Below are positions 29,724 to 45,823 of a DNA stretch of 64,000 nt, piece by piece (position 1 is the stretch's first letter; every line of letters begins with the position of its first letter). Under the pieces are notes generated by a model. It searched no databases and was not told where the DNA came from. It was given only the letters and a program-made list of their open reading frames with translations. The position numbers and the translations under genes are program-made. Source of the stretch: Candidatus Nomurabacteria bacterium (GTDB lineage: Bacteria; Patescibacteriota; Minisyncoccia; Phycocordibacterales; UBA9973); assembly GCA_016699365.1 (NCBI GenBank), contig CP064973.1, forward strand, positions 365,684-429,683. Direction: 5' to 3'.

Positions 29724-29744
29724 ATATTTCAAATACAGAAACAG

Positions 29745-31720: not shown

Positions 31721-31802
31721 TTTTACACATTATTTTCTATACATAGTAGCTAGTTCGTATTACAATATAACAATGTTAGAAGCTTGTGCTTCGTTTATGT
31801 AA

Positions 31803-32495: not shown

Positions 32496-32499
32496 ATTT

Positions 32500-33081
32500 A
32501 TGATGAGATTTATTTTTCCAATTATTTTGTTTGTAGCCTCAATAGGATTGTTTTTGGGTGTAACAAATCCTATCTATAAAGCCACAAAAGAACTCAAAGC
32601 AGAAACAGCAACCTATGCTGAAGCTTTGGCTAATTCAAAACAATTGGAAGAGAGACGTGATGAGCTTGTGGCTAAATACAATGAATTTGCTCCAAGTGAT
32701 GTTGAGAGATTGCGAAAGCTCTTGCCAGACAACGTAGACAATATACGTTTGATTTTAGAGATTGATTATATAGCTTCTAGATATGGTATGTCAGTTACAA
32801 ACGTAGCTTTTGACGTAGACAACAAAGAAGCTTCAGATACAGAAAATTCAATAGCTGAAGGGGGAAGTAGTTTGAGTATGACAAATCGAGATATTGGAAC
32901 ATTTGATTTGAGTTTTTCTACACAAGCTTCTTATGATAATTTTCAAAAGTTTTTGATTGATTTGGAAAATAGTTTGCGTATTGTAGATATACAGGAAATT
33001 ACTTTCGATTCAACAGCTTCAGAAGGCAGAGATTTTTATAAGTACAACATTAAGATTAAAACATATTGGTTAAAGAATTAG
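32500..33081 (+). CDS. PilO-like pilus assembly protein
   Basis: N-terminal TM helix plus a coiled-coil. Position and topology typical of PilO. Confidence 0.5.
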   Translation: MMRFIFPIILFVASIGLFLGVTNPIYKATKELKAETATYAEALANSKQLEERRDELVAKYNEFAPSDVERLRKLLPDNVDNIRLILEIDYIASRYGMSVTNVAFDVDNKEASDTENSIAEGGSSLSMTNRDIGTFDLSFSTQASYDNFQKFLIDLENSLRIVDIQEITFDSTASEGRDFYKYNIKIKTYWLKN

Positions 33082-33085
33082 ATTT

Positions 33086-33706
33086 ATGAGCAAGATTATT
33101 AAACGTCTAATAACAGTAGCAGTATTGGTTGCCTTAATTGCAATCGGGTATTCTTTGGTTTCGAACAAGAAGCAAGACAGTCAGTCTCTATCAACTGTAG
33201 GAGCTTCTGCAGACAGTACAAATGAAACCGGAGATGAATTCTTGGCGACTCTTCTGAATCTTCAAGTATTAAAACTAGATGGTGATATCTTCAATGCAAA
33301 TACATTTACAGGTTTACAAGATTTCTCAATAACTCTTGTTCAGCTTGGTAACCAGGGTCGTCCAAATCCTTTTGCTCCTATAGGATCAGACCTTTCTCCT
33401 ACGAGTGTAATATCAAGTCCTAGTGTCATAACAAATACGCCTACTTCTATAACAACTACAAGCTCAGTACTTCAGGGTGCTTTGCTAGCTGGAACAGTCG
33501 CAACTGAAAGATGGTTTGAGTGGGGTCTCACAGAATCTCTGGGTGCAAGTACAACAAAATTACTAGGCAGTACTAGTCCTTATACTGCTACGGTTTCTGG
33601 TCTAACAGCAAACACAACTTACTTCTATAAGGCTGCAGCTAAAATAAACGGACAGACTGTTTACGGATCGGTTGTATCTTGGAAAACGCTCAGCACAAGT
33701 AATTAG
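33086..33706 (+). CDS. hypothetical pilus-associated membrane-anchored protein (S/T-rich)
   Basis: TM anchor plus a Ser/Thr-rich region. It belongs to the pilMNO string, where a PilP-like protein would be expected. Confidence 0.3.
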   Translation: MSKIIKRLITVAVLVALIAIGYSLVSNKKQDSQSLSTVGASADSTNETGDEFLATLLNLQVLKLDGDIFNANTFTGLQDFSITLVQLGNQGRPNPFAPIGSDLSPTSVISSPSVITNTPTSITTTSSVLQGALLAGTVATERWFEWGLTESLGASTTKLLGSTSPYTATVSGLTANTTYFYKAAAKINGQTVYGSVVSWKTLSTSN

Positions 33707-33726
33707 TTGTTTGTTCAAATTTTTAT

Positions 33727-35463
33727 ATGACTTTTTTAGAACATCTTGCTGGTCAAGGTATTATTACAGACAATCAAATAAGTGAAGTAATCAGACTCGC
33801 CGAAGAGAAACATGGCGGGAATATTGACGATATGCTCGTAGAGCTTGGTTTAGATGATAAAAAACTTTTGGAACTTAAAGGTAGTTTTTTCAATGTTCCA
33901 ACAAAAGATGTTGATCTAAGACAAATAACTTCTGACACATTGAAATATATTCCTGAAGATTCAGCGAAGCATTATATGTTTGTTCCTCTAGGTATAAAAG
34001 ATGGAGTGCTCGAGGTTGGTATAGTGAACCCTGACAATATAGGAGCAATAGATGCTATACAATTTATAACTTCAAAGATGAATATTCCTTATAAGATATT
34101 TTTGATATCAAGTAAGGCATTTGAAGGTATTTTAAAAAATTATGAGGGCCTAACAGGAGAAGTTGATCAAGCAATATCTGAAATTGATAAAGAAATAGAG
34201 TCTGTAAATACTAGCGATATTGTAATAGAAGATAGAAATATCCAGGCTAAATTAAAACCAGGCGAAGAAGAGCGTATTGTTGAAGACGCGCCTATAATCA
34301 AAGTTGTTGCAGTTATATTGCGTCACGCAACAGAAGGAAACGCTTCTGATATTCACATAGAAAACACAGGTGACAAAGTAAAGGTACGTTTTCGTGTGGA
34401 CGGAGTCTTGCATACTAGTCTTGTACTACCTTTAAATGTTTACGCAGGAATAGTTGCTCGTATAAAGATAATGGCAAAACTACGATTGGATGAAAAACGT
34501 AAACCTCAAGACGGAAGTTTTGCTACAAAGATAGCTGGTAGAAAAGTAGAGTTTCGTGTGTCTACATTCCCAGCCTATTATGGTGAAAAAGTTGTGATGA
34601 GAATTCTCGATTCTTCACGTGGAGTGAAGAAGCTTTCAGAATTGGGCCTATCTGAACATAACTACAAACTTATAAAAGAAGCATTGGCAAAGCCATACGG
34701 TCTTATACTGATGACAGGTCCAACTGGTTCCGGTAAATCTACTACTGTGTATTCGATGTTGAATGAGCTCGACAAAGAAAAGTCCAATGTCGTGTCTCTA
34801 GAAGATCCGGTTGAATATCAAATCCCAGACGTAAACCAGTCTCAGGTTATGCCAGAGATAGGGTACTCTTTTGCTTCAGGTCTTCGTTCAATATTGCGTC
34901 AAGATCCGAACATAATAATGGTGGGAGAAATACGCGACAAAGAAACAGCTCAGCTTGCAATTCAGGCGGCTCTAACAGGTCACTTGGTATTGTCTACTTT
35001 ACACACGAACTCTGCTGTTGGTGTAGTTCCGCGTTTGGTGGACATGGGAGTTGATCCTTATCTAATTGCGCCAACACTTATACTCTCTATAGCTCAACGT
35101 CTTGCTCGTGTTGTGTGCGAGGATTCACGCAAAGAAGTTCCTATGGATGAAACCATGAAAGAGCTTTTGGACAATCAATTTAAAGATTTACCAGAGAAAT
35201 ACAGAGGTCAGTTGCCTGCACGGGACAAAATGTATGAAGTTGTGCCTTCAGCTGAATGTCCAAATGGAACTCGCGGACGTATGGCAGTATTTGAAATGTT
35301 CGCCGTTAGTAAAGAGATGCAACATGTTATTTTAACTAGTCCGGTAGAGGCGGAAATATATAAAGTGGCTAGAGCAGACGGTATGCTTACCATGAAAGAG
35401 GATGCGATTATTAAAAGTCTAAAAGGGGAGTTGCCGTTTCAAGAAATCTACAATGATTTGTAA
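33727..35463 (+). CDS. pilB: type IV pilus assembly ATPase PilB (GspE family)
   Basis: Walker A LMTGPTGSGKSTT, an Asp box and a His box, and N-terminal GspII_E-like domains. Length 578 aa. Confidence 0.9.
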   Translation: MTFLEHLAGQGIITDNQISEVIRLAEEKHGGNIDDMLVELGLDDKKLLELKGSFFNVPTKDVDLRQITSDTLKYIPEDSAKHYMFVPLGIKDGVLEVGIVNPDNIGAIDAIQFITSKMNIPYKIFLISSKAFEGILKNYEGLTGEVDQAISEIDKEIESVNTSDIVIEDRNIQAKLKPGEEERIVEDAPIIKVVAVILRHATEGNASDIHIENTGDKVKVRFRVDGVLHTSLVLPLNVYAGIVARIKIMAKLRLDEKRKPQDGSFATKIAGRKVEFRVSTFPAYYGEKVVMRILDSSRGVKKLSELGLSEHNYKLIKEALAKPYGLILMTGPTGSGKSTTVYSMLNELDKEKSNVVSLEDPVEYQIPDVNQSQVMPEIGYSFASGLRSILRQDPNIIMVGEIRDKETAQLAIQAALTGHLVLSTLHTNSAVGVVPRLVDMGVDPYLIAPTLILSIAQRLARVVCEDSRKEVPMDETMKELLDNQFKDLPEKYRGQLPARDKMYEVVPSAECPNGTRGRMAVFEMFAVSKEMQHVILTSPVEAEIYKVARADGMLTMKEDAIIKSLKGELPFQEIYNDL

Positions 35464-35506
35464 ATTGGTAAAAAACGGAGTGTTTATAGTATAATTAGAA
35501 GCAATT

Positions 35507-35908
35507 ATGGAAGAATCCAAAAAATACAAAATATTAATTATTGACGACGACAATTTTTTGCTAGACATGTACGCTATGAAATTTTCTCAGGAGCCAAAAT
35601 TTTCTGTAGATACAGCTCTCGGTTCTACTTTGGCTTATGAGAAATTAAAAGCAGGGGCTTCTCCAGATGTTATGTTGATGGACATTGTTATGCCGGGAAT
35701 GGATGGATTTGAACTTCTCGAAAAGTTGCGCGATGAAAAAATAGCAGAAGGTACTATGAAAATTATACTTTCAAACCGTGGTCAACAATCTGACATAGAA
35801 CGTGGTGCGACTCTAGGAGTGGCTGGTTATATCGTAAAAGCTTCTAGTACACCAGGCGAGGTTATTACTAAAGTAACTGAAATTGTTACCAAACAATTAC
35901 CAAGATAA
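35507..35908 (+). CDS. CheY-like response regulator receiver (PilH-like) within the pilus locus
   Basis: KILIIDDD...VMLMDIVMPGMDGFELLEKLR...KIILSN carries the receiver motifs. It lies between pilB and pilT. Confidence 0.75.
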   Translation: MEESKKYKILIIDDDNFLLDMYAMKFSQEPKFSVDTALGSTLAYEKLKAGASPDVMLMDIVMPGMDGFELLEKLRDEKIAEGTMKIILSNRGQQSDIERGATLGVAGYIVKASSTPGEVITKVTEIVTKQLPR

Positions 35909-35910
35909 TT

Positions 35911-36969
35911 ATGGATTACGCAAAAGAACTAGAAGATTTATTGGTTACTCTTATTCGTGAAGGCGGATCAGATCTTCATATTGCTGGAATGCGCTATCCT
36001 GCAATCCGCGTTTCAGGACAATTAAACTTTTTAGTTAAGCATAATATTTATACAAAAGAAGATTCTTTGGGAATACTTCGAGAACTGTTGGACGATGTTA
36101 AATATAAAAAGTTTTTAGAAGACCAAGAGATTGATTTTTCATACGATTTTAAAGGTGAGGCTAGGCTTCGTGGTAACGCCTTCTTTACAAAAGGTATAGC
36201 GGGTATTGCTCTCCGACTTATACCACAAGTTAAGACTCTAGCTGAGCTCAGACTTCCTCCAATTATTGAAACTTTTTGTAGAAAAAAACAAGGATTTTTT
36301 CTTGTCGTAGGACCAGTTGGTCAAGGTAAGTCCACAACTCTTGCCTCTATGATAAGTCTTATAAACAACGAACGTGCAGAACACATAGTAACTATCGAAG
36401 ACCCAATAGAATACATGTATACACCGAAGCACTCTATTATAGATCAGCGTGAAGTTGGTATAGATACAAAAGATTTCAATTCAGCCCTGAAGTCTGTGTT
36501 TCGTGAAGATGTAAACGTAATACTGATTGGTGAGATGCGCAATGCTGAGACTATTTCTACTGCTGTTACAGCTGCTGAAACAGGTCACTTGGTTTTCTCT
36601 ACTCTTCATACAAACAACGCTTCTCAGACTATTGACCGTATCATCGATGCGTTTCCACCTGGCCAACAAGATCAGATTCGTATACAACTTGCTTCAAGTT
36701 TGATCGGAATATTTTCTCAGCGTCTTATACCTTGTATAACTGGGGGACTTGTTCCAGCATATGAGCTTCTCGTAAACAACAACGCTGTACAAAACCTTAT
36801 CCGAGAAAAACGTACACACGAGATAGATGTAGTAATAGAAACTGGATATGAGCACGGTATGATAGATATGAACCGCTCCCTTGTAGAACTTGTACGTGCA
36901 GGACAAATTACAATGGACAATGCTTACTTATATTCACTTAACCCAAAAGCTCTAGAGCGATTGCTATAA
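35911..36969 (+). CDS. pilT: type IV pilus retraction ATPase PilT
   Basis: Walker A VVGPVGQGKSTTLASMI and a compact 352-aa PilT architecture. Confidence 0.9.
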   Translation: MDYAKELEDLLVTLIREGGSDLHIAGMRYPAIRVSGQLNFLVKHNIYTKEDSLGILRELLDDVKYKKFLEDQEIDFSYDFKGEARLRGNAFFTKGIAGIALRLIPQVKTLAELRLPPIIETFCRKKQGFFLVVGPVGQGKSTTLASMISLINNERAEHIVTIEDPIEYMYTPKHSIIDQREVGIDTKDFNSALKSVFREDVNVILIGEMRNAETISTAVTAAETGHLVFSTLHTNNASQTIDRIIDAFPPGQQDQIRIQLASSLIGIFSQRLIPCITGGLVPAYELLVNNNAVQNLIREKRTHEIDVVIETGYEHGMIDMNRSLVELVRAGQITMDNAYLYSLNPKALERLL

Positions 36970-36978
36970 TTTTAAAAT

Positions 36979-38181
36979 ATGACCTTCAAATATAAAGTTG
37001 TTTCAAATACAGGTGAACAAAAAGAGGGCTCAATCGATGCTCAAACAAAAGATTTGGCGATCGCCGCACTTCAGCGTCGTGGTTTTATAGTTGTTTCTAT
37101 AAAAGGGGAAGAGGACAAAAACCTACTTCAAATGTCAGTCTTTGAACATGTGCCAGCAAAAGACATAGTCATACTTTCTCGTCAGATAGCAACACTTTTC
37201 GAAGCACAAGTTTCTGCACTAAAAGCATTTTCACTTCTTGCTTCAAACGTAGAGAACCCGCTACTTTCTAGAAATTTGAATCAAGTAGTAGATGACTTGC
37301 AGGCCGGATATTCTATTTCAGGAGCATTGGCAAAACATCCAGATGTGTTTTCAGCTTTTTATGTAAACATGGTAAAAGCTGGAGAAGAGTCTGGAAAATT
37401 GAACGACACTTTCAATTTCCTAGCAGACTATCTAGACCGAAACTATGCTCTCACATCGAAAACTCGCAACGCACTCATATATCCAGCGTTCGTTATTTTT
37501 ACTTTCTTTGTGGTAATGGGGTTGATGTTTACAATAGTTATACCTAAACTCTCTTCTATTATCACAGAAAGTGGTCAGGATATACCTCTGTATACAAAGG
37601 TGGTAATCGGTGCGAGTGACTTCTTTGTAAATTATGGATTTTTCATACTAATATTCTTTGTTATTGCTGGAGTATATATCTGGTATCTTTCACGAACTAA
37701 CTCTGGTAAACAATATCTCGATGGTTTGAAGATATCTTTTCCTGTTATAGGCAAGCTCTTCAAGAAACTTTATCTTGCACGTATTGCTGACAACTTGGAT
37801 ACGATGCTTTCTTCTGGTATATCAATCGTGCGTTCTATAGAAATCACAGGAGACGTTGTTGGAAACCGTGTCTATTCTGAGATTTTAAAAAAAGCTGAAG
37901 AAGATGTAAAAGGTGGTTCATCTCTCTCTGATGCATTTGCAAAACACGAACCTATTCCACCGATTTTGGTGCAGATGGTAAAAGTGGGTGAGGAGACTGG
38001 GTCTCTAGGAAGTATCTTGAAAACTTTGGCTAAGTTCTACAAACGTGAAGTGGACGATGCAGTTGATACGCTCGTATCACTTATCGAGCCTATTATGATC
38101 GTCGCACTTGGTTTGGGTGTTGGTGTGCTCCTAGCATCAGTTCTCGTCCCGATCTACAACATCGCAGGAGGGATATCGTAG
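36979..38181 (+). CDS. pilC: type IV pilus platform protein PilC (GspF family)
   Basis: 400-aa polytopic protein with two T2SSF repeats (ALIYPAFVIFTFFVVMG..., IEPIMIVALGLGVG). Confidence 0.9.
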   Translation: MTFKYKVVSNTGEQKEGSIDAQTKDLAIAALQRRGFIVVSIKGEEDKNLLQMSVFEHVPAKDIVILSRQIATLFEAQVSALKAFSLLASNVENPLLSRNLNQVVDDLQAGYSISGALAKHPDVFSAFYVNMVKAGEESGKLNDTFNFLADYLDRNYALTSKTRNALIYPAFVIFTFFVVMGLMFTIVIPKLSSIITESGQDIPLYTKVVIGASDFFVNYGFFILIFFVIAGVYIWYLSRTNSGKQYLDGLKISFPVIGKLFKKLYLARIADNLDTMLSSGISIVRSIEITGDVVGNRVYSEILKKAEEDVKGGSSLSDAFAKHEPIPPILVQMVKVGEETGSLGSILKTLAKFYKREVDDAVDTLVSLIEPIMIVALGLGVGVLLASVLVPIYNIAGGIS

Positions 38182-38194
38182 AATAAATATAATT

Positions 38195-38224
38195 AAAACC
38201 CCGCATATTGCGGGGTTTTTTTTA
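38195..38224. terminator. bidirectional terminator (aaaaccccgcaatattgcggggtttt)
   Basis: Perfect hairpin with a long T run, between pilC(+) and the 38222-41164(-) gene. Confidence 0.65.
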
Positions 38225-41164
38225 TTGAATTATGAATTTTTCTGAATGAATAATATGCCCGTTTTGTATGATTTCTGCTTCATATAATCCTGACGGGAAT
38301 AATGAAATGTTTAACTCGACAATATTATTTTCATCTGTATTCATATTAGACACAGGCTGACCTAAATTATTTACAATAACAATATTAGTATTTGTATTTT
38401 TGAAAACACTTAAGTCAATATATATTTTATTGCTAGATGGATTGGGGTAGAGGATGGTATTTTCTACATCAATACCTTCTTTGCATACAATGGATACAGC
38501 AATACTGTTTGAATTTTTAAAACAACCAGTTGCTGTTTTTATTACTCTGCATTTGTAGTTTCCGGCTGATGTTGCTGTGTAATTTATATTAGTAGCACCA
38601 GTTATTGCTGTGGCACCTTTGTACCACTGGTAGCTTAAGCCCACTCCTTCATTTGCTGTAAGAGTAACACTCTCTCCGGCACAGAAACTTGTCGGTCCTC
38701 CTGCTGATATACTTGCTGGCGGATTTTTATTTACTGTTACTATTATTGCGTTTGAAGCTGTGCCTGAGCACTCGTTGGAGCTTATGCAGGTATAAGATCC
38801 TGTAGTTGATACGGTTAAAAATTCATTTGTTTCTCCTGATATTGCAACACCATTTTTATACCACTGTACAGCTGTACCTGTATGAGTTGTTGTTAATACA
38901 ATACTATTGCCTTGGCAAAAAGTGGTAGAACCTAGAGCATTTATAGACACAGAAGGTCCGGTGTCTTCATCGGTGAGTCCATCGCAGTCATCATCTATAG
39001 TATTGCAGATTTCGGGGGATGGAATACATTCGCCAAATAATTTTATAACCCAGTAGTCGAAATTACCTATAGAATTTTCAGTTTTATCACCTGAAATATT
39101 TGATTGAGACATACCACCTAGTATGTATCCTTTATCAGAAGTTTGTTGTAATGAGAAAAAATAATCATCTCCGCTTCCTCCTATAGTATTTTGCCATTCG
39201 ATTACACCAGACTCATTAATTTTGACTACCCAGTAATCACTTGATAGAGACGCCTCATTTTTATCCCCGTATATACCAGAGGCTGAAGTTCCTCCAAGAA
39301 TATAGCCCCCATCTAGTATATTTTTTACAGACAATAAATCATCCGTAGAATTACCTCCTATTGTGTTTTCCCATTCAATAAATCCTTCGGCGCTTAATTT
39401 AATAACCCAATAATCAGAGCCTCCAAAATTTATTTCAGTCTTATCGCCTGAGATGCTTGAAAGAGAAATTCCTCCCAGTATATATCCTCCGTCAGGGGTT
39501 TGTTGCACAGAATACATTATATCGCTCATGTTTCCTCCTATGGTATTCTGCCATTCAATATTTCCATCATTATTTAATTTAACAACCCAATAGTCGTACA
39601 TTGAAGATACTTCAGTTTTATCACCAGATATACCAGAGGATGAATTTCCACCTAAAATATATCCTCCATCCACTGTTTGTTGAACTGATTGAAGATTATC
39701 ATCTCCGCTTCCTCCTATAGTATTTTGCCATTCGATTACACCTGAGCTGTCTAATTTAATAACCCAGTAATCTAAGAATCCAATTAATACTTCAGTTTTA
39801 TCACCAGATATACCAGAGGATGAATTTCCACCTAAAATATATCCTCCATCCACTGTTTGTTGAACTGATTGAAGATTATCATCTCCGCTTCCTCCTATAG
39901 TATTTTGCCATTCGATTACACCTGAGCTGTCTAATTTAATAACCCAGTAATCAGATAAGCCTAAGGATAATTCAGTCTTATCTCCTGAAATACCTGAATA
40001 AGAAGATCCACCTAAAATATATCCTCCATCAGAGGTTTGTTTAATAGAGTAAAAAAAGTCTTGACTACTTCCTCCTATGGTATTCTGCCATTCAATATTT
40101 CCATCATTCCCCAATTTAATAATCCAATAGTCATCAGATAAAGATATTTCCGTTTTGTCACCCGATATACCAGAGGATGAATTACCTCCTAAAATATACC
40201 CACCGTCATATGTCTGTTCTATTGAGTAAAGGCCATCATAGTTTGATCCTCCTATGGTATTCTGCCATTCGATTTCTGGTGCAGTTTCGATATAAGTACT
40301 TGGTCTATTTGCATCGATGAAGTCTGTTCCATCAATAATTCCATCACGTTGCATATTAGCAAAAGCAATAGTTGTTTGTTCAGCTGTCATTGTTCCTGCG
40401 AAATGAATTCCGCTATTTGCACAAGGTTCAATACAGTCAACTAGTCCTCCGTAACCACCTCTACCGTTATCTCTTGGGTAAAGGATATTTCCATTTCCTG
40501 AATAACTGTACAAAGAGTTTCGTATACTAAAATGAAGATGGGGAGACATAGGGGTGCCTCCTCCGGGTGCAGTATAACCTGATCCAATTCTAGCAATTGG
40601 CTGACCTCTTGTTACCCATTCACCAATAGATACAGTAAAATCATCAATACTATTACAAATACTTCCATCGGTATTGTTTAGAGTAGTGACGTGATTGTAT
40701 TCACTTGTATTTATACTGTCGCCTTCATAATAATGCTCTACAACAATAACCCATCCGGAATACGCTGCAACACCTAATCCGCTTGAAATTTTTATATCAA
40801 CAATAATTCCATTAGCAGAAACAAATATTGTGTCTCCGTTGTCTCCTCCTTCTCGGTTTAAGTCACATCCTGGGTGATCACCTTTACTTGTATTACCAAA
40901 GTCACCCTCGTCTCCTGCGCTGAATATTCCAGTACATCCAGTCAAACACTCTCTTTGAGGATTTGCAATTGGATTGTTGGGGTAGAGTGTATTTTGTTCC
41001 GGACTAAGATTTTCACTTATCTCGTACTCATTACCTTCGGCTGTGTAACCCCTATCATCAACAGGGTAGTCCCAGCCGTCTACATAAAGAGTGTCCGGTG
41101 TTTGCGAAAAGATTGCGGATGCAATTATTAGCATCAACGCAATTAGAAGAATAAACTTTTTCAT
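38222..41164 (-). CDS. secreted 980-aa multidomain protein: M23 (LytM) peptidase domain + ~8 SBBP-type beta-propeller repeats + MopE/Ig-like region + T9SS-type C-terminal sorting domain
   Basis: N-terminal signal peptide. The M23 motifs are HPGCDL and SPHLHFSIR. Repeats have the form IEWQNTIGG...DGGYILGG.SSSGISGDKTE....DYWVIKL. The C-terminus is NTILYPNPSSNKIYIDLS...GLYEAEIIQNGHIIHSEKFIIQ. Confidence 0.7.
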   Translation of the reverse strand: MKKFILLIALMLIIASAIFSQTPDTLYVDGWDYPVDDRGYTAEGNEYEISENLSPEQNTLYPNNPIANPQRECLTGCTGIFSAGDEGDFGNTSKGDHPGCDLNREGGDNGDTIFVSANGIIVDIKISSGLGVAAYSGWVIVVEHYYEGDSINTSEYNHVTTLNNTDGSICNSIDDFTVSIGEWVTRGQPIARIGSGYTAPGGGTPMSPHLHFSIRNSLYSYSGNGNILYPRDNGRGGYGGLVDCIEPCANSGIHFAGTMTAEQTTIAFANMQRDGIIDGTDFIDANRPSTYIETAPEIEWQNTIGGSNYDGLYSIEQTYDGGYILGGNSSSGISGDKTEISLSDDYWIIKLGNDGNIEWQNTIGGSSQDFFYSIKQTSDGGYILGGSSYSGISGDKTELSLGLSDYWVIKLDSSGVIEWQNTIGGSGDDNLQSVQQTVDGGYILGGNSSSGISGDKTEVLIGFLDYWVIKLDSSGVIEWQNTIGGSGDDNLQSVQQTVDGGYILGGNSSSGISGDKTEVSSMYDYWVVKLNNDGNIEWQNTIGGNMSDIMYSVQQTPDGGYILGGISLSSISGDKTEINFGGSDYWVIKLSAEGFIEWENTIGGNSTDDLLSVKNILDGGYILGGTSASGIYGDKNEASLSSDYWVVKINESGVIEWQNTIGGSGDDYFFSLQQTSDKGYILGGMSQSNISGDKTENSIGNFDYWVIKLFGECIPSPEICNTIDDDCDGLTDEDTGPSVSINALGSTTFCQGNSIVLTTTHTGTAVQWYKNGVAISGETNEFLTVSTTGSYTCISSNECSGTASNAIIVTVNKNPPASISAGGPTSFCAGESVTLTANEGVGLSYQWYKGATAITGATNINYTATSAGNYKCRVIKTATGCFKNSNSIAVSIVCKEGIDVENTILYPNPSSNKIYIDLSVFKNTNTNIVIVNNLGQPVSNMNTDENNIVELNISLFPSGLYEAEIIQNGHIIHSEKFIIQ
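39607..39952. repeat. perfect tandem duplication inside the SBBP-repeat gene: 166 bp at 39607-39772 identical to 39787-39952 (period 180 bp = one 60-aa repeat)
   Basis: Direct comparison of the two stretches. Flanking repeats are more diverged. Confidence 0.85.
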
Positions 41165-41376
41165 ATTTTATTTTTTTTTTGTTAAAGAAAATTTATTAAA
41201 TTTTATCTCCAAATTTATATTTTGTCATTTAGAAGTAGTCATTTTTTGTGGATATTTATCCACAACTAGGGGATTTACATAGTAAAAACCCTTTTATGCT
41301 ATACTTTAGGTATTATAAATAGGTCGCGTCGCAATCGATTAATGAAAGCGGCAAATTTTAAAAAGTTTTATTTTAT

Positions 41377-41850
41377 ATGTCACAAAAAAACAAAGGTTTC
41401 ACACTTATAGAACTCTTGGTTGTTATCGCAATCATCGGTATTCTAGCTTCAGTAGTTTTGGCTTCACTTAACACAGCACGTACAAAAGGTGCAGATGCTG
41501 CAGTAAAAGCTAACTTGTCCAATGCTCGTGCACAAGCAGAACTTTTCTATGATGCAAATAGCAATAGTTATGATTCAGTTTGTACAACTGACCTTGCTAC
41601 TGTAAAAGGTATTGGAGATTCTGTATTAGCAGCTGCTAAAGCTCATACAGGGGCTACAGCTTCTATAGGGGTAGATACAACTGTGTTTAATTACACATCT
41701 CAAATCGTTGCTTGTCATGATGACGCAACAGGATGGGCTGCAATTGTAAGTTTGAAAAACCCAACAACTGCAAGTAGTGGATTCTGTGTTGACTCAACTG
41801 GTGCTGCTAAAGAAGCGACAACTCTAGCTTCAACTATTGTAACTTGTTAA
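41377..41850 (+). CDS. type IV pilin (prepilin-type N-terminal cleavage/methylation domain)
   Basis: The MSQKNKGFTLIELLVVIAIIGILASVVLASL leader is followed by a variable C-terminal domain with a Cys pair. Confidence 0.75.
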   Translation: MSQKNKGFTLIELLVVIAIIGILASVVLASLNTARTKGADAAVKANLSNARAQAELFYDANSNSYDSVCTTDLATVKGIGDSVLAAAKAHTGATASIGVDTTVFNYTSQIVACHDDATGWAAIVSLKNPTTASSGFCVDSTGAAKEATTLASTIVTC

Positions 41851-41870
41851 GTTGAGTCTATTGAAGTTTT

Positions 41871-41900
41871 AAAAAACACTCCACAATGGAGTGTTTTTTT
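41871..41900 (+). terminator. intrinsic terminator after pilin gene (aacactcca caa tggagtgtt + T7)
   Basis: Perfect 9-bp stem plus a T run. Termination after the first pilin gene could make it the most highly expressed one, consistent with it being the major pilin. Confidence 0.65.
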
Positions 41901-41990
41901 GTGAAAGATACTCACAGTGCATAGGTGATTCCTGCTATTATATAAGATTGCTTATGATACAATTAATATATTGTTAATAATTTTTTTACC

Positions 41991-42506
41991 ATGAAAAAAG
42001 ACAAATACACAAAAGGTTTTACACTCTTGGAATTACTTATTGTGATTGTAATTATCGGCCTACTTTCTGCCATAATTATGGGTGCCTTGAATAGTGCTAG
42101 AGCAAATAGTCGTGATTCTAAAGATATCACCGAACTTAAATCAGTAGTAAATGCACTAAATCTATATTTTAGTACAAACGGATATTATCCTGCTGTAGCA
42201 ACATCTCTAGTTCCAACATATATTCCAGTTATGCCTTCAAATATATACTACACCGGCTTGAGTGGTTCAGCTGGACAGTGCGCCTCTTATCATGTAGGTG
42301 TTTCTTTGGAAAAAAACAATGTAGTCCTTAATACAGACCGAGATCTACTTTCTACGACTGCAGGTCTTGTGGGGACAGGCTATACAAACCTTTGTGGTAA
42401 TACAAATGGATTGAACGCTAGCTCTATCAGAGGTGATGATGCGCAGTCTTGTAAAGGTACAGTAGTAGAGCCTGCTGGTGGAAAATGTTTTGATCTTGTA
42501 CCGTAA
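41991..42506 (+). CDS. type IV pilin-like protein
   Basis: KGFTLLELLIVIVIIGLLSAII prepilin N-terminus. Confidence 0.7.
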   Translation: MKKDKYTKGFTLLELLIVIVIIGLLSAIIMGALNSARANSRDSKDITELKSVVNALNLYFSTNGYYPAVATSLVPTYIPVMPSNIYYTGLSGSAGQCASYHVGVSLEKNNVVLNTDRDLLSTTAGLVGTGYTNLCGNTNGLNASSIRGDDAQSCKGTVVEPAGGKCFDLVP

Positions 42507-42513: not shown

Positions 42514-43320
42514 ATGTATACCTTCTTACCAATATTTATAATATTTATTTTAGGACTCTTTATCGGGAGCTTTCTTAATGTTGTTATATACAGATATCAG
42601 ACCGGCTGGGGACTTGGCGGCAGATCTATGTGTTTGTCATGCGGCAAGACACTTCATTGGTATGAGCTTTTTCCAATTTTCAGTTATATATTTTTGCGTG
42701 GTAAGTGTTCAGTTTGTAAATCAAAAATTTCTATTCAGTATCCACTTGTTGAAATATCAACAGCTTTTATCTTTGTCTTTTTAGCCAATAAATTTCTATC
42801 TTCTGAAGTGGTATCTTTTGTAACTGTCGCTCCGCTCATATACTCTATGTTTATGGCATCGCTTCTTATAGTGATAGCTGTGTACGATATTCGACACAAG
42901 ATTATTCCCAACGCACTTGTATATACTTTTATCCTATTTGCTTTTCTAGGAATGTTTACAAATGTATATGGGATTGTTGCTCCAGCTCCGATAGATGCAT
43001 TTGCTGGAATACTCTTACCTTTACCTTTTTATCTACTTTGGCTTTTGTCAAAAGGTAGACTCATGGGGTTTGGTGACCTGAAGCTTATGATGGGAATGGG
43101 ATTCTTTTTAGGTTTATCAAATGGAGTAGCGGCACTCATGATATCTTTTTGGGTTGGTGCAGTTGTATCAATACTCCTTCTTCTAGCAAAACACTCTCGA
43201 TATACTATGAAGAGTGAAGTTCCTTTTGGTCCGTTTTTAGTATTCGGTACATTGTTTGTTTATGTTTTTGAAACATCTTTCCAAACGCTTTCTATTTTTT
43301 TGAGTAATTTATTTTTCTAA
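42514..43320 (+). CDS. pilD: prepilin peptidase (A24 family, PilD)
   Basis: Cytoplasmic zinc finger CLSCGKTL...CSVCKSK, conserved Asp-containing helices, and a polytopic topology. Confidence 0.85.
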   Translation: MYTFLPIFIIFILGLFIGSFLNVVIYRYQTGWGLGGRSMCLSCGKTLHWYELFPIFSYIFLRGKCSVCKSKISIQYPLVEISTAFIFVFLANKFLSSEVVSFVTVAPLIYSMFMASLLIVIAVYDIRHKIIPNALVYTFILFAFLGMFTNVYGIVAPAPIDAFAGILLPLPFYLLWLLSKGRLMGFGDLKLMMGMGFFLGLSNGVAALMISFWVGAVVSILLLLAKHSRYTMKSEVPFGPFLVFGTLFVYVFETSFQTLSIFLSNLFF

Positions 43321-43968
43321 ATGAAGGTAAATAAAAACAATTATAAATACACAAGAGGGATGACATTCATAGAGCTTATAGTGGTTTTGTCTATAGTCGG
43401 GATTATATCTAGTGTCACACTCTTGAATTTCTCTGATTTCTCTACCAGGGCATCACTCCAAAATCTTTCTCAAGATATTGCTCTTCATATTAAAAAAGCT
43501 CAGACCAATGCAATATCTGGAAGATTGACTGGAGGTTTAGATACAGGCCAGCCGCCTGCTTATGGAATTTATTTCAACATGGATACGCCAGAGTCTTTTA
43601 TTTACTTTAGAGATTTGGGTTCTCCTAGAAATTTCTTGTTTGATGGTAACTGTGATAATCCTGGTGAGCTCGGGGTTGAGTGTTTATCTACAACAACAAT
43701 CCAGTCAAATGACGCAATATCTGATATTTGTACACACGATGGGTCTTGTGGTTACGAGGATTTATCAGTTACATACGTTAGACCTTTTCCAGAGCCAAAA
43801 ATTTATGGAACAAAATTTGATACTTTATACGAATTACCATCAGGTGCAAAAATAGAAATAATTTCTCCAAAAGGAATAAATATGAATATTTCTATATGGC
43901 CAACAGGGCAGATCAGTGTTTCTGACGGTGCTGTTGATGCATGTGGTGGAGGAGGAGTAGCTTGTTAA
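43321..43968 (+). CDS. minor pilin-like protein (prepilin N-terminus)
   Basis: GMTFIELIVVLSIVGIISS motif. Confidence 0.6.
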   Translation: MKVNKNNYKYTRGMTFIELIVVLSIVGIISSVTLLNFSDFSTRASLQNLSQDIALHIKKAQTNAISGRLTGGLDTGQPPAYGIYFNMDTPESFIYFRDLGSPRNFLFDGNCDNPGELGVECLSTTTIQSNDAISDICTHDGSCGYEDLSVTYVRPFPEPKIYGTKFDTLYELPSGAKIEIISPKGINMNISIWPTGQISVSDGAVDACGGGGVAC

Positions 43969-44621
43969 TTTATATGAAATACAAAAATCATAAAAATAAA
44001 AATTCTGGATTTACGATTATTGAGATTGTTATAGCAGTAGGTCTTTTTACTGTTGTGATGATTATTGGTATTGGAGCAGTTTTAAAAGTAAATCAAATTC
44101 ATAAAAAAACAACTGATACTAGACAGGCAATAGACAGCATGCACTTTGTTCTAGAAGATATGTCTAGAAATATTAGACTAGGAAGTTTTTATAATTGTAG
44201 AGCATCTATCGGAGGTTTAGGGGAAACAGAAGATTGTCCGTTTGAGGAAGGTATAACCCCATACCAATCTATGGCTTTTGAGAGAGTAAATGGCAACCCT
44301 GCTGATGATGGTGACCAGGTTGTGTATAGAATTGTAGAGGTATCTGGTACTGGAATATATAAGCTGGTAAAGGGCACTGGTATTGCTTGTGCTACTTCTC
44401 CTACAGGTAGTGGATGTCTTGATTTGACCCCGTATTCTGTACACATAGATCCAAACAAATCCGGTTTCAATATTGAAAACGCAGAAAATCCAAACCCATT
44501 GCTCGGTGATGGAACACAACCAAGAGTTATTATCCGATTAGCTGGAGATATAGTTTATCAAGATATAGTGACTCCTTTTTCAGTCCAGACAACTATATCT
44601 CAAAGACAAATTGATTTCTAA
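43941..44621 (+). CDS. minor pilin-like protein
   Basis: SGFTIIEIVIAVGLFTVVMII motif. It overlaps the upstream gene by 28 bp. Confidence 0.6.
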   Translation: MWWRRSSLLIYMKYKNHKNKNSGFTIIEIVIAVGLFTVVMIIGIGAVLKVNQIHKKTTDTRQAIDSMHFVLEDMSRNIRLGSFYNCRASIGGLGETEDCPFEEGITPYQSMAFERVNGNPADDGDQVVYRIVEVSGTGIYKLVKGTGIACATSPTGSGCLDLTPYSVHIDPNKSGFNIENAENPNPLLGDGTQPRVIIRLAGDIVYQDIVTPFSVQTTISQRQIDF

Positions 44622-44626
44622 AATAT

Positions 44627-45223
44627 ATGCATAAAATTTTTTCAAAAATAAACAAAGAAAAAAATAGCAACCAAGGTTTTACTATTGTAGAGACTCTTGT
44701 AGCTTTGGCTATATTTTCTTCATCAATTGTTTTTTTGATAGTTGTTTCAAGTGGTGGTGTATCAAATACCACACTAGCGAAGTCTAGGCTTACAGCCTCA
44801 TACTTGGCCCAAGAGGGAGTAGAGATTGTTCGCAATCTCAGAGATACTTCAGTTATAGCTGATCCTTCAGGTGAGGGATGGTCTACTTTCATATCAAGTA
44901 CTAGTTCTTGTACAGGAACTCAAGGTTGTAATATAGATCCATCAAGTCTAGATATTTGTGCATGTACTGGCTCCACTTGTAATATTCCATACTCAGAAGC
45001 TTCAGGATATTTCGGATATGACCAGAGTCATGCTTGCGACCTGCCTAGTGGTTCAATTGCTTCGCCTTTTACTAGAACAATATTTATTTTGCAAATTCCA
45101 GAAACTACAGCAAACGATGTTTTGGTTACTAGTAAAGTTACTTGGTATCAAGGTGTTTCAGAACAGACAATTACTTATCAAAATATATTGATGGATTGGC
45201 AGCCTCATATAAGTGCAATATAA
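44627..45223 (+). CDS. minor pilin-like protein
   Basis: QGFTIVETLVALAIFSSSIVFL motif. Confidence 0.6.
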   Translation: MHKIFSKINKEKNSNQGFTIVETLVALAIFSSSIVFLIVVSSGGVSNTTLAKSRLTASYLAQEGVEIVRNLRDTSVIADPSGEGWSTFISSTSSCTGTQGCNIDPSSLDICACTGSTCNIPYSEASGYFGYDQSHACDLPSGSIASPFTRTIFILQIPETTANDVLVTSKVTWYQGVSEQTITYQNILMDWQPHISAI

Positions 45224-45226
45224 AAT

Positions 45227-45823
45227 ATGAAAATATTTATTAAACAAATAAAAAAAGCAGACAAAAATCAGGGTGGTTTCGTCGTACTTTTTACAGTTTT
45301 GATATCAGTGATTGTTTTAGTTTTAGCAACTGGAATATTTAATATAGCTTTAAAAGAAACTGAACTTACCATATCTGCAAAAGAATCTAACTTAGCATTT
45401 TATGCAGCAGACGCTGGTAGTGAGTGTGCACTTTACTATGACCTTAAAGAAAACGCTTTCAATCCAATTTCTCCAATAACACCAGAGTGTAGAGACGGCG
45501 TCGTGTCTAATTTTGAGACTATCTCTCCAACATTATTTACATTTGAATTCGACCTATCTCCTCGTAGCTGTGCGACAATTGAAGTCAATAAAAATTTTGA
45601 CATAGATGGTGCTAGTTTCACACGTATAATATCTCAAGGGTATAACATAGATTGCGCACAATTGGATTCATTTGATACAAATCGTATAGTCGAGAGACTC
45701 TTGGAAGTAAAATATCCAAATCCAGTAGCTGCGGTTCCAGACGGTGGTTTTGTCGAAGCCGGCGAAGCACCAGCCCCAGAGGGCGGAGTAGTTGATGATG
45801 GGGCGGGCGCAGGGGTACTCTAG
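45227..45823 (+). CDS. PilX-like minor pilin/pseudopilin
   Basis: NQGGFVVLFTVLISVIVLVLATGIFNIALKE hydrophobic N-terminus without the canonical G-F/E motif, plus a Gly/Ala/Pro-rich tail. Confidence 0.5.
   Translation: MKIFIKQIKKADKNQGGFVVLFTVLISVIVLVLATGIFNIALKETELTISAKESNLAFYAADAGSECALYYDLKENAFNPISPITPECRDGVVSNFETISPTLFTFEFDLSPRSCATIEVNKNFDIDGASFTRIISQGYNIDCAQLDSFDTNRIVERLLEVKYPNPVAAVPDGGFVEAGEAPAPEGGVVDDGAGAGVL

What the first reader, a model, noticed from the sequence alone, without database searches (positions are those of the whole stretch)
38222..41164. 980-aa surface protein combining an M23 peptidoglycan peptidase, eight SBBP beta-propeller repeats and a T9SS-type C-terminal sorting domain in a CPR-like, pilus-rich genome
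The C-terminal ~80 aa (NTILYPNPSSNKIYIDLS...GLYEAEIIQNGHIIHSEKFIIQ) match the Por/T9SS C-terminal sorting-domain pattern, which is characteristic of Bacteroidota and related FCB-group phyla. The rest of the window looks Patescibacteria-like, and no T9SS components are evident. One reading is horizontal acquisition of a predatory or cell-wall-attacking effector (LytM-type peptidase plus SBBP adhesin repeats). Another is that the sorting domain has been co-opted for a different export route. For an episymbiont this is a plausible host-interaction factor.
Basis: partly seen in the sequence, partly recalled or inferred. Interest (0 to 1): 0.55.

Follow-up and report, generated by a model that had tools for sequence, protein, structure and literature searches.

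The report
Swappable cell-wall-cutting protein in pilus locus
A tiny symbiotic (CPR/Paceibacteria) bacterium carries, inside its pilus gene cluster, a secreted cell-wall-cutting enzyme built on a surface-protein scaffold typical of Bacteroidota; the scaffold still carries that phylum's secretion tag, and its parts are swapped between strains, so it is a good candidate for a host-attachment or host-attack factor.

Summary
The 980-aa ORF (38222-41164, minus strand) is real. It encodes a Sec signal peptide, an extended M23/LytM peptidase head, a seven-bladed beta-propeller (not eight; no Pfam SBBP hit), a MopE-like Cys motif, two Ig domains and a T9SS type-A C-terminal domain. The CTD passes both curated cutoffs (PF18962 39.6 vs 27 bits; TIGR04183 34.2 vs 23).

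The genome is CPR, class Paceibacteria. It has no uL30 gene, and SecY is 100% identical to a 'Candidatus Pacebacteria' MAG protein. No T9SS gene is in the window.

New findings:
- The gene is an accessory insertion at the pilC|pilin junction of the type IV pilus locus. Nine other CPR loci carry it there, in both orientations. Most related loci have the slot empty.
- It is a mosaic hypervariable cassette. Neighbours are 90-98% identical to the closest genome, but this protein is 52% identical (head 37-43%). One head swap has a mapped breakpoint.
- It is under purifying selection (pN/pS 0.13) and its codon usage is native.
- The full architecture also exists in a Bacteroidota context as ordinary T9SS cargo.

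Best reading: a horizontally acquired, pilus-associated, host-directed peptidoglycan hydrolase and adhesin. Its CTD is conserved but cannot act through a T9SS here. This is a new variant of a known kind.

The parts
38222..41164 (-). Complete 980-aa ORF: signal peptide, M23 head, 7-blade propeller, MopE-like motif, Ig x2, T9SS-type CTD
   Evidence: ORF list; domain scans. pN/pS is 0.13 against a 98.5%-identical strain, so it is a maintained gene.
41105..41164 (-). Sec-type signal peptide (aa 1-20, MKKFILLIALMLIIASAIFS)
   Evidence: It is the only hydrophobic 19-aa window in the protein. There is no lipobox and no LPXTG motif. Cleavability is inferred; no signal-peptide predictor was available.
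40274..41104 (-). Head domain (aa 21-297): extended M23/LytM metallopeptidase, core at about aa 89-223 (nt 40496-40900). This is the most variable module.
   Evidence: PF01551 scores 29.4 bits. PDB profile hits 8s3m, LytM and SpoIIQ. H97, D101, H158, H209 and H211 are invariant in 32 family members. AF2 pLDDT is 87.9, and the Foldseek top 17 are all M23 hydrolases. PHROG endolysin family hit, E 6e-10. No DNA similarity to the closest genome over 40354-41148.
39023..40273 (-). Seven ~60-aa repeats (aa 298-714) forming a predicted seven-bladed beta-propeller. Blades 3 and 4 (39560-39916) are 88% identical at nucleotide level.
   Evidence: Repeat starts; CylK propeller homology at E 4e-15; no SBBP Pfam hit; tandem-repeat and blade identity matrix.
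38945..39022 (-). MopE-like Cys-rich motif (aa 715-740, C..C..DDDCDG)
   Evidence: PF11617 is sub-threshold at 17.6 bits. The motif is conserved in Bacteroidota 'MopE-related' homologues.
38486..38944 (-). Two Ig-like domains (aa 741-893). Ig2 is the most conserved module, 77-82% identical across phyla.
   Evidence: Ig_2 and Ig_7 above GA; per-domain identities.
38225..38467 (-). T9SS type-A C-terminal sorting domain (aa 900-980)
   Evidence: PF18962 39.6 bits against 27; TIGR04183 34.2 against 23. Canonical motifs are retained in all CPR alleles. It is the only CTD-bearing ORF in the window and in 158 kb of CPR target loci.
38195..38219 (.). Bidirectional intrinsic terminator hairpin between the convergent pilC and target stops
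   Evidence: An 11-bp stem with 6 GC pairs and T-runs on both strands. The left boundary of the divergent island coincides with it.
41165..41376 (.). 212-bp intergenic region between the divergently transcribed target and major pilin. It is conserved between alleles and is a likely shared regulatory region and recombination anchor.
   Evidence: 84.5% DNA identity to L001 over 41148-41556, while the adjacent head-coding DNA is unalignable. A promoter-like ATGACA-17-TAAAAT lies at 41228-41200 (-), but promoter-like sites are not enriched over shuffles.
41377..42506 (+). Two type IV pilins (157 and 171 aa). The first has a hypervariable C-terminal half.
   Evidence: N_methyl motif. They are 63% and 70% identical to L001, against 90-98% for the machinery. 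pN/pS is 0.28 for pilin 1.
30575..38181 (+). Upstream pilus machinery: PilM, two PilN/O-like proteins, an unknown ORF, PilB, a response regulator, PilT, PilC
   Evidence: Pfam; 90-98% identity to L001; pN/pS 0-0.02.
42514..45823 (+). Prepilin peptidase PilD and four minor-pilin-like ORFs
   Evidence: Pfam A24 in orthologous loci; N_methyl motifs.

Best explanation
The gene is a horizontally acquired accessory cassette. It originated from a Bacteroidota family of T9SS-secreted surface proteins and inserted at the pilC|pilin junction of the type IV pilus locus in one subclade of Paceibacteria (CPR).

Its product is exported by the Sec pathway. CPR cells have no outer membrane, so that step alone should place the protein outside the cell. 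There it most likely works together with the pilus. The seven-bladed propeller and Ig domains would bind a partner-cell surface. The catalytically intact M23 head would cut peptidoglycan cross-links in that partner, which may be a host or prey cell. This would help the episymbiont attach to, or gain access through, the wall.

Modules (head, propeller, Ig, CTD) are exchanged between strains by homologous recombination at conserved junctions. This is what is expected of a specificity determinant tracking variable targets.

The T9SS C-terminal domain came along with the scaffold. It is kept intact but cannot function as a T9SS signal in this organism. Its present role is unknown; it may be structural, or it may bind something.

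Shown: domain identities, intact active-site residues, M23 fold, CPR identity, conserved pilus-slot synteny, patchy presence, mosaicism and one mapped head swap, purifying selection, native codon usage, and Bacteroidota counterparts of the whole architecture.

Inferred: secretion route, partner-directed activity, cooperation with the pilus, and the role of the CTD.
For: Domains:
- CTD above curated cutoffs.
- M23 by profile, invariant H97/D101/H158/H209/H211 and fold.
- PHROG endolysin hit.
- Seven blades homologous to the CylK propeller.

Secreted, not anchored:
- One N-terminal hydrophobic segment, no lipobox or LPXTG, 16 Cys.

CPR identity:
- No uL30; SecY identical to a Pacebacteria MAG protein.
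- No T9SS genes in the window.
- T9SS is reported as confined to Bacteroidetes (PMC11611037, PMC7906972, PMC10202324).

Pilus slot:
- Same pilC|pilin position in L001, L002/3, L004, L007, L008, L017, L021, L022 and L023, in both orientations.

Accessory status:
- 80 related PilC loci (0.69 Mb) contain no head, blade or CTD ORF. Most show pilC directly followed by a pilin.

Hypervariable and mosaic:
- Neighbours are 90-98% identical to L001 but the target is 52%.
- The DNA island has sharp boundaries.
- Modules reassort.
- L022 is collinear with L002 except that its head-coding 952 bp matches only L004, at 85.5%.

Maintained gene:
- pN/pS 0.13; native GC, GC3 and RSCU; CTD motifs intact in all CPR alleles.

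Bacteroidota origin:
- Thousands of scaffold homologues.
- Full architecture in a Bacteroidota context (L024).
- The same head with a CTD in Microscillaceae (L005).

Precedent:
- A pilus-locus protein with a seven-bladed propeller and a non-pilin signal peptide (PilX2) is needed for host binding in Saccharibacteria TM7x (PMC12206443).
Against: - There is no experimental or expression data.
- The host of these Paceibacteria is unknown.
- Nothing shows physical association with the pilus. In the window the gene is a separate, convergently terminated transcription unit.
- No immunity gene is evident in the window. A wall-degrading exoenzyme would therefore have to spare the producer's own peptidoglycan by some unexplained means.
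- If the CTD were useless baggage, some decay or loss would be expected. Instead it is retained with all motifs in every CPR allele, including the most divergent one. This hints at a function that this explanation does not supply.
- The direction and number of transfers are not resolved by the trees.
- Only the 64-kb window, not the whole genome, was checked for T9SS genes.
Confidence: 0.5

Rival explanations
1. It is a housekeeping pilus-assembly autolysin. The M23 head locally remodels the CPR cell's own peptidoglycan so the pilus can pass through the wall. Known examples are the M23B peptidase Mpg for Neisseria type IV pili and LytF for the competence pilus of Streptococcus sanguinis.
For: - It has an intact M23 active site.
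- It is encoded inside the pilus cluster in ten loci.
- Precedents exist in PMC11980366 and PMC13192262.
- The window encodes its own peptidoglycan-related genes (VanY with PG_binding_1, FtsEX).
Against: - A self-directed assembly factor should be as conserved as the machinery. Instead it is 52% identical where PilB/T/C are 95-98%, its head is swapped between strains, and its pN/pS is several-fold higher than the machinery's.
- Most related pilus loci lack it altogether, so the pilus does not need it.
- The ~680 aa of propeller, Ig and CTD have no obvious role in self-remodelling.
Confidence: 0.12
2. It is a PilY1/PilX2-like pilus-tip adhesin. The propeller docks on the minor-pilin tip complex and mediates long-range host recognition. 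The M23 head is secondary, or acts mainly as a binding module.
For: - It has a seven-bladed propeller and a non-pilin signal peptide, and it sits next to pilins and minor pilins.
- PilX2 of TM7x has these same features and is required for host binding (PMC12206443).
- In L007 and L017 the gene is co-directional with the pil genes.
Against: - It has no sequence match to the PilY1/PilC family in Pfam.
- The propeller belongs to a Bacteroidota surface-protein family that has no link to pili.
- All five M23 catalytic and zinc-ligand residues are invariant, which argues that catalysis matters.
- Docking to minor pilins was not tested.
Confidence: 0.15
3. It is a bacteriolytic exoenzyme used against competitors (for example rival episymbionts or bystander bacteria) rather than the host. 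It would behave like lysostaphin-type M23 bacteriocins or polymorphic toxins.
For: - The closest folds include lysostaphin, LytM and EnpA.
- The catalytic head is modular and swapped between strains, as in polymorphic toxin systems.
- In relatives, extra small genes sit next to some alleles and could be immunity or accessory factors, such as the LysM-like ORF in L001.
Against: - No conserved adjacent immunity gene accompanies the alleles.
- The variable enzyme is N-terminal, not the C-terminal toxin typical of polymorphic toxins.
- The strict pilus-slot location is not explained.
Confidence: 0.1
4. It is an assembly or binning artefact: a Bacteroidota gene joined chimerically to a CPR contig.
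For: The scaffold's closest named relatives are all Bacteroidota, and the CTD is a Bacteroidota hallmark.
Against: - The same insertion is found at the same junction in nine other independently assembled contigs from NCBI, JGI, ENA and Logan, with conserved flanks on both sides.
- GC, GC3 and codon usage match the rest of the window.
- A 98.5%-identical strain shows collinear DNA across both junctions.
Confidence: 0.01

Closest known systems
Bacteroidota T9SS type-A cargo of the 'propeller - MopE-related - Ig - Por_Secre_tail' family (e.g. Chitinophagales and Adhaeribacter 'T9SS type A sorting domain-containing protein')
   Same: - It has the same repeat family, MopE-like motif, Ig pair and CTD.
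- It is 50-58% identical over the propeller and up to 77-78% over Ig2.
- One Bacteroidota-context protein (P0099) has the entire architecture including the M23-type head.
   Different: - It is encoded in a CPR genome with no T9SS genes in view and, from general knowledge, no outer membrane.
- It is a single copy, not one of the tandem arrays seen in Bacteroidota.
- It is embedded in a pilus locus.
- Its CTD cannot be used as in Bacteroidota.
M23/LytM peptidoglycan endopeptidases (lysostaphin, LytM, ShyA, EnpA, StM23; PDB 'Lytic endopeptidase' 8s3m)
   Same: - It has the HxxxD...H...HxH zinc and catalytic residues.
- The predicted fold matches with probability 1.00.
   Different: - The head is an extended ~280-aa subfamily with conserved N-terminal (DGFDYPxGxRGY) and C-terminal (DGIxDxSDFIxxxRPS) additions. 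It has 95 cluster representatives at E<1e-30.
- It barely passes the Pfam cutoff.
- Its substrate is unknown.
PilY1 (Pseudomonas/Myxococcus) and PilX2 of Saccharibacteria TM7x: pilus-associated seven-bladed propeller adhesins
   Same: It is a large non-pilin protein with a seven-bladed propeller, encoded among pilin genes. PilX2 is needed for host binding in a CPR bacterium (PMC12206443).
   Different: - It has no detectable sequence relationship.
- The propeller family is different.
- It carries an enzyme head and a T9SS CTD.
- It is an accessory gene, absent from most related loci.
Pilus-linked wall hydrolases: Neisseria Mpg (M23B) and Streptococcus sanguinis LytF
   Same: It is a peptidoglycan hydrolase functionally tied to a type IV pilus (PMC11980366, PMC13192262).
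   Different: Those are conserved, self-directed enzymes. This one is hypervariable, mosaic, dispensable for the locus, and carries adhesin-like domains.
Polymorphic toxin / modular surface-effector loci
   Same: An enzymatic module is exchanged on a conserved scaffold by recombination at a conserved junction.
   Different: - The variable enzyme is N-terminal.
- All modules reassort, not only the enzyme.
- No cognate immunity gene was seen.

Membership tests
Peptidase M23 (LytM-type metallopeptidase) | Match to the family profile at or above the curated threshold | tested here: met
   PF01551 scores 29.4 bits against GA 28.7, which is marginal. The PDB profile search hits M23 proteins with E down to 1.5e-13.
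Peptidase M23 (LytM-type metallopeptidase) | HxxxD and HxH zinc-binding/catalytic motifs plus the intervening catalytic His | tested here: met
   H97, D101, H158, H209 and H211 are invariant in 7 orthologues and in 32 family members.
Peptidase M23 (LytM-type metallopeptidase) | LytM beta-sheet fold | tested here: met
   The AF2 model has pLDDT 87.9. All 17 Foldseek PDB hits with E<=0.001 are M23 hydrolases, each with probability 1.00.
Peptidase M23 (LytM-type metallopeptidase) | Zinc-dependent cleavage of peptidoglycan peptide bridges | not testable with these tools
   This requires an enzyme assay.
T9SS type-A cargo (Por_Secre_tail / TIGR04183) | C-terminal domain matching the curated models, at the extreme C-terminus | tested here: met
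   PF18962 scores 39.6 against 27 over residues 905-979. TIGR04183 scores 34.2 against 23 over residues 905-980. Motifs are shown.
T9SS type-A cargo (Por_Secre_tail / TIGR04183) | N-terminal Sec signal peptide | tested here: met
   There is a single N-terminal hydrophobic segment preceded by KK. No dedicated predictor was available.
T9SS type-A cargo (Por_Secre_tail / TIGR04183) | T9SS machinery (GldK/L/M/N, SprA, PorV, PorU) and an outer membrane in the same organism | tested here: not met
   No such gene is among the ~60 ORFs scanned in the 64-kb window. The organism is a CPR bacterium. T9SS is reported as confined to Bacteroidetes (PMC11611037, PMC7906972). The rest of the genome could not be scanned.
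T9SS type-A cargo (Por_Secre_tail / TIGR04183) | CTD-dependent export and CTD removal by PorU | not testable with these tools
   This requires proteomics or genetics.
SBBP repeat (PF06739) | Match to the Pfam repeat model | tested here: not met
   No hit at E<=1 on the whole protein. No hit at E<=10 on the repeat region or on a single repeat.
Seven-bladed beta-propeller | Seven tandem blade-length repeats homologous to a solved seven-bladed propeller | tested here: met
   Seven repeats of 59-60 aa. phmmer hits the CylK propeller (7fh8, 7ron) at E 4e-15. No structure model of this region was made.
PilY1 / PilC-type pilus tip adhesin | Sequence membership in the PilY1/Neisseria PilC family | tested here: not met
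   There is no such Pfam hit at E<=1.
PilY1 / PilC-type pilus tip adhesin | Encoded with pilins, and carries a propeller domain | tested here: met
   Pilus-slot synteny in ten loci; propeller.
PilY1 / PilC-type pilus tip adhesin | Physical association with the minor-pilin tip complex | not testable with these tools
   No complex prediction or experiment was available.
Polymorphic toxin system | Variable enzymatic module exchanged on a conserved scaffold | tested here: met
   The head swap in L022 relative to L002 and L004 has its breakpoint at the head/propeller junction. See also the module identity matrices.
Polymorphic toxin system | Cognate immunity gene immediately adjacent | tested here: not met
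   No conserved neighbour is present. The window has only 40 bp between the gene and pilC. Relatives carry unrelated extras: LysM-like, DKNYY and GIY-YIG ORFs.

The most novel reading that the evidence does not exclude
The cassette is the host-range determinant of this Paceibacteria clade, and its ancestry identifies the hosts as Bacteroidota of the Chitinophagales/Cytophagales type.

On this reading the episymbiont displays a copy of its host's own T9SS surface-protein scaffold. The T9SS C-terminal domain is kept intact because it engages host components, namely the host's T9SS shuttle or attachment machinery, or the host's surface coat. Engagement would occur once the M23 head has opened the wall, or at the host surface itself.

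This would be molecular mimicry of a host secretion signal by a CPR bacterium. Module swapping would then track host strain variation.
Probability: 0.08. Interest if true: 0.9.

Novelty: new variant of a known kind. Interest (0 to 1): 0.62.

Why it matters
How Paceibacteria and Parcubacteria, among the most abundant uncultured bacteria, recognise and exploit partner cells is essentially unknown. For most lineages their hosts are unknown too.

This locus offers a concrete, testable candidate. It is a secreted, catalytically intact wall-cutting enzyme fused to binding domains. It sits in the pilus locus next to the hypervariable major pilin, and its modules are demonstrably exchanged between strains.

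Its clear ancestry in Bacteroidota surface proteins gives a specific hypothesis about which organisms these CPR bacteria live with.

It also shows that a 'phylum-specific' secretion tag (the T9SS CTD) can persist, fully conserved, in an organism that cannot use the cognate machinery. That matters for genome annotation, because 'T9SS sorting domain-containing' does not imply a T9SS. It also raises the question of what else the domain can do.

Tried and rejected
- **First AF2 run of the head.** With only 7 sequences it gave pLDDT 34 and was discarded. A 32-sequence alignment fixed it.
- **The search for homologous proteins with the head profile.** It returned only 2 hits and missed the known orthologues. 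I treated this as a limitation of the word index and replaced it with the exhaustive representative search.
- **SBBP assignment.** Rejected after two Pfam scans.
- **NJ tree of the MopE-Ig region.** It first suggested CPR polyphyly. After removing duplicates and bootstrapping, the deep nodes were unsupported: CPR monophyly at most 7%, subgroups about 46%. I make no claim about the number of transfers.
- **Rapid positive selection as the cause of divergence.** Rejected: pN/pS is 0.13 between near-identical strains. Allele and module replacement fits better.
- **P0099.** I initially counted it as a CPR allele. Its context is Bacteroidota-like, so it was re-labelled.
- **Exact-sequence look-up of the window protein.** It found nothing; the 99% allele P0001 was used instead.
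- **Phage vehicle.** No relative of the head was found in IMG/VR.
- **PDB entry 8s3m.** No paper was found for it.

Full report
**1. The observation**

Pfam finds Por_Secre_tail at residues 905-979 (39.6 bits, gathering score 27). It also finds two Ig-like domains (Ig_2/Ig_7, roughly 745-890), Peptidase_M23 at 123-216 (29.4 bits against 28.7) and a sub-threshold MopE-type Cys motif at 717-733. NCBIfam TIGR04183, the T9SS type-A sorting domain, scores 34.2 against a cutoff of 23.

The repeat claim is only half right. There are seven repeats of 59-60 aa (298-714), not eight. The SBBP model gives no hit at E<=1 on the whole protein, or at E<=10 on the repeat region alone. The repeats do match the beta-propeller of CylK (7fh8/7ron, E about 4e-15). 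From my own knowledge that propeller is seven-bladed, so 'beta-propeller' stands.

**2. The head is an intact M23 peptidase of an extended subfamily**

A profile of seven orthologous heads hits PDB 8s3m, 'Lytic endopeptidase' (E 1.5e-13), and more weakly an M23 family peptidase, SpoIIQ and LytM.

The zinc ligands and catalytic histidines are H97 and D101 (HxxxD), H158, and H209/H211 (HxH). All five are invariant in the seven orthologues and in 32 diverse family members.

With the deeper alignment, AlphaFold2 gives pLDDT 87.9 and pTM 0.87. All 17 significant Foldseek matches in the PDB are M23/LytM peptidoglycan hydrolases: StM23, lysostaphin, ShyA, Csd1/2, LytM, EnpA, DipM and phi29 gp13. PHROGs places residues 89-223 in an endolysin family.

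An exhaustive HMMER search shows the whole ~280-aa head is a family of its own. It has 95 cluster representatives at E<1e-30 and 258 at E<1e-10. It occurs in many secreted multidomain proteins, some of them with T9SS CTDs.

The protein has one N-terminal hydrophobic segment, no lipobox, no LPXTG motif and 16 cysteines. This is the profile of a secreted, unanchored extracellular protein. Signal-peptide cleavage is inferred.

**3. The organism is a CPR bacterium**

The ribosomal operon reads L6-L18-S5-(11 bp)-L15-SecY-Adk-Map. The uL30 gene is therefore absent, which from established knowledge is a hallmark of CPR.

SecY is 100% identical to a protein annotated 'MAG: Candidatus Pacebacteria bacterium', seen on a contig of up to 705 kb. 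Every other named relative is Parcubacteria, Nomurabacteria or Paceibacterota.

Pfam scans of about 60 ORFs in the window found housekeeping genes and a full type IV pilus cluster, but no T9SS component. The literature in the library describes the T9SS as limited to Bacteroidetes/Bacteroidota (PMC11611037, PMC7906972, PMC10202324). I found no paper that links T9SS sorting domains with Patescibacteria.

The rest of the genome could not be scanned with the tools available.

**4. It is not a chimera: the synteny is conserved**

Full-length relatives sit at the same place, between pilC and the first pilin gene. This holds in nine other independently assembled contigs:
- L001/L006 (NCBI GCA_964634365.1)
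- L002/L003 (JGI)
- L004 and L007 (Paceibacterota MAGs)
- L008 (Nomurabacteria MAG)
- L017 (ENA; a 1460-aa two-propeller version)
- L021 (ENA; the 99% allele)
- L022 (Logan)
- L023 (NCBI GCA_964460555.1)

The gene lies opposite to the pil genes in most loci and co-directional in L007 and L017.

In the window a perfect bidirectional terminator hairpin (38195-38219) separates it from pilC. A 212-bp region separates its start from the divergently transcribed major pilin.

GC (z = 0.04), GC3 (z = -0.63) and codon usage (RSCU distance rank 8 of 16 among long genes) are indistinguishable from the rest of the window.

**5. It is an accessory insertion**

I scanned metagenome contigs with PilC as the anchor. 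This returned 80 related pilus loci (PilC 47-74% identical, 0.69 Mb in all). None contains an ORF matching the head, blade or CTD profiles.

In the 39 loci with enough downstream sequence, the usual order is pilC, pilin(s), pilD, minor pilins, LigA, with nothing in the slot. A few carry unrelated inserts there. One empty-slot locus (L026) has PilC at 74% identity. Carriers of the gene have PilC at 72-76%. Presence is therefore patchy.

In the window and in 158 kb of CPR carrier loci, this is the only ORF with a CTD or with blades. By contrast a 22-kb Bacteroidota locus (L019) has about ten CTD-bearing ORFs.

**6. It is a mosaic, hypervariable cassette**

Identity of the window to its closest genome (L001) is as follows:

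| Gene | Amino-acid identity |
|---|---|
| PilM | 95% |
| PilB | 95% |
| PilT | 98% |
| PilC | 97% |
| PilD | 91% |
| Target protein | 52% |
| Pilin 1 | 63% |
| Pilin 2 | 70% |

At the DNA level, identity to L001 changes sharply along the locus:

| Window region | DNA identity to L001 |
|---|---|
| Up to the pilC stop (about 38198) | 85% |
| Scaffold-coding part (38428-40354) | about 66% |
| Head-coding part (40354-41148) | undetectable |
| Start codon, intergenic region and pilin 5' end (41148-41556) | 84.5% |

Per-module identities between alleles are incongruent:
- P0036 has a head 91% identical to P0017, but a propeller 82% and a CTD 96% identical to P0076.
- P0042 and P0047 share 96% heads, but only 58% propellers and 42% CTDs.
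- P0076 and P0042 share 90% Ig regions, but only 41% heads.

One exchange is mapped directly. L022 is collinear with L002 at 87-96% DNA identity on both flanks and through propeller-Ig-CTD-pilC. Its head-coding 952 bp has no similarity to L002 and matches L004 at 85.5%. The breakpoint lies at the head/propeller junction.

Within the window allele, blades 3 and 4 are 88% identical in DNA, against 59-78% for other pairs. This points to recent intragenic duplication or conversion.

Comparison with a 98.5%-identical strain (L021) gives pN/pS = 0.13 for the target (7 nonsynonymous, 15 synonymous changes). The pilus machinery gives 0-0.02 and the major pilin 0.28. The gene is therefore functional and under purifying selection. 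The deep divergence between alleles reflects replacement and reassortment of old modules rather than rapid point substitution.

**7. Origin**

The propeller-MopE-Ig-CTD scaffold has thousands of relatives. Those with names are 'T9SS type A sorting domain-containing' or 'MopE-related' proteins of Adhaeribacter, Chitinophagales and other Bacteroidota. Identity to these is 50-58% over the propeller and up to 77% over Ig2, as high as to the CPR orthologues.

Contexts examined for headless and other-headed versions are Bacteroidota-like. They show Arm-type integrases and tandem arrays of CTD-bearing genes (L018, L019). One version carries a SpoIID head instead of M23 (P0038).

Most importantly, P0099 has the entire architecture (M23-type head, propeller, Ig pair, CTD; 990 aa) in such a Bacteroidota context (L024). 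A Microscillaceae protein combines the same head with a CTD (L005).

Together with the patchy presence in CPR, this supports transfer from Bacteroidota into a Paceibacteria subclade. Bootstrapped trees of the short Ig region do not resolve whether this happened once or several times.

The core CPR alleles share a distinctive CTD ending, '...I(H/Y)SEK(F/I)I...'. This is compatible with common ancestry followed by recombination within CPR.

No relative of the head was found on viral contigs.

**8. Mechanism**

The best-supported model has five steps:
1. The protein is exported by Sec. In a cell without an outer membrane (general knowledge about CPR), that step alone should place it outside.
2. 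Its expression is probably coordinated with the major pilin through the conserved divergent intergenic region. This is inferred.
3. The propeller and Ig domains bind a partner surface.
4. The M23 head cleaves partner peptidoglycan.
5. Module exchange diversifies specificity.

The Saccharibacteria precedent makes a pilus-linked adhesive role credible. PilX2, a pilus-locus protein with a seven-bladed propeller and a non-pilin signal peptide, is required for host binding there (PMC12206443).

The self-directed alternative is an Mpg- or LytF-like pilus autolysin (PMC11980366, PMC13192262). It is hard to reconcile with the hypervariability, or with the gene's absence from most related pilus loci.

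**9. What remains unexplained**

The CTD is retained, with every canonical motif, in all CPR alleles, including the most divergent. If it were inert baggage, some loss would be expected. It may simply be a stable terminal beta-sandwich. It may also have a binding role.

The most novel reading not excluded is that the CTD engages the T9SS-related surface machinery of a Bacteroidota host. I give that low probability.

Also unexplained is how the producer would protect its own wall. No conserved immunity gene accompanies the cassette.

**10. Verdict**

The gene is a conserved but accessory, recombining cassette in the pilus locus, with a clear Bacteroidota pedigree.

It is a new variant of known kinds (pilus-associated propeller adhesins, M23 lytic enzymes, T9SS cargo scaffolds) rather than something categorically new.

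Noticed in passing
window 21003-21077 (-), 29634-29723 (-), 29744-29831 (-): Unusual tRNA anticodons: tRNA-Ile(UAU), and a tRNA-Ser(ACU) lying directly beside tRNA-Ser(GCU).
   Followed up: no
window 28035-29648 (+): A large serine recombinase (Resolvase + Recombinase + Zn ribbon) whose 3' end overlaps tRNA-Ser. Local GC is 0.40-0.41 against a background of 0.37, and its GC3 (0.40) is the highest among the long genes. This may be the edge of an integrated element.
   Followed up: no
window 41377-41850 (+): The major pilin's C-terminal half is hypervariable. There are 14 nonsynonymous differences between strains that are 98.5% identical in DNA (pN/pS 0.28). DNA similarity to L001 is lost after about 41556.
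   Followed up: partly
window 2558-3654: Ribosomal protein genes S5 and L15 are separated by only 11 bp. There is no uL30 gene, which is a CPR signature.
   Followed up: yes
window 7141-9867 (+): A 908-aa ORF with a weak TrwB-type coupling-protein ATPase match. It may be part of the monoderm-type conjugation/T4SS machinery described for Patescibacteria (PMC12102498 listed).
   Followed up: no
window 21187-21996 (+) and 24286-24789 (-): A biopterin-dependent aromatic amino-acid hydroxylase and a cupredoxin-like copper protein. Both are unexpected in a minimal CPR genome.
   Followed up: no
L001 12992-13570; L023 4179-5156; L017 9643-9873: Relatives carry extra small genes in the same pilC|pilin slot. 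L001 has a 192-aa membrane-anchored LysM-like protein, L023 a 325-aa DKNYY-domain protein, and L017 a 76-aa GIY-YIG protein. The slot therefore seems to be a hotspot for accessory genes.
   Followed up: partly
window 39560-39916 (-): Propeller blades 3 and 4 are 88% identical at nucleotide level (TRF period 180, 91% matches). This indicates recent intragenic duplication or gene conversion.
   Followed up: yes
L018 10001-14620 (protein P0038): A Bacteroidota-context protein carries a SpoIID (PF08486) head on the same two-propeller-MopE-Ig-CTD scaffold. In Bacteroidota the scaffold is therefore also used with a different peptidoglycan-related head.
   Followed up: partly
head family (proteins P0123-P0267): The ~280-aa head is an uncharacterised extended M23 subfamily with conserved flanks (DGFDYPxGxRGY ... 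DGIxDxSDFIxxxRPS). It is found at N-terminal, internal or C-terminal positions of proteins up to 4530 aa, and 15 of 147 retrieved members carry T9SS CTDs.
   Followed up: partly
L029, L055, L056, L058, L064, L066: Some related Paceibacteria pilus loci carry other, unrelated ORFs (210-587 aa) between pilC and the pilins or among the pilins. They were not characterised.
   Followed up: no
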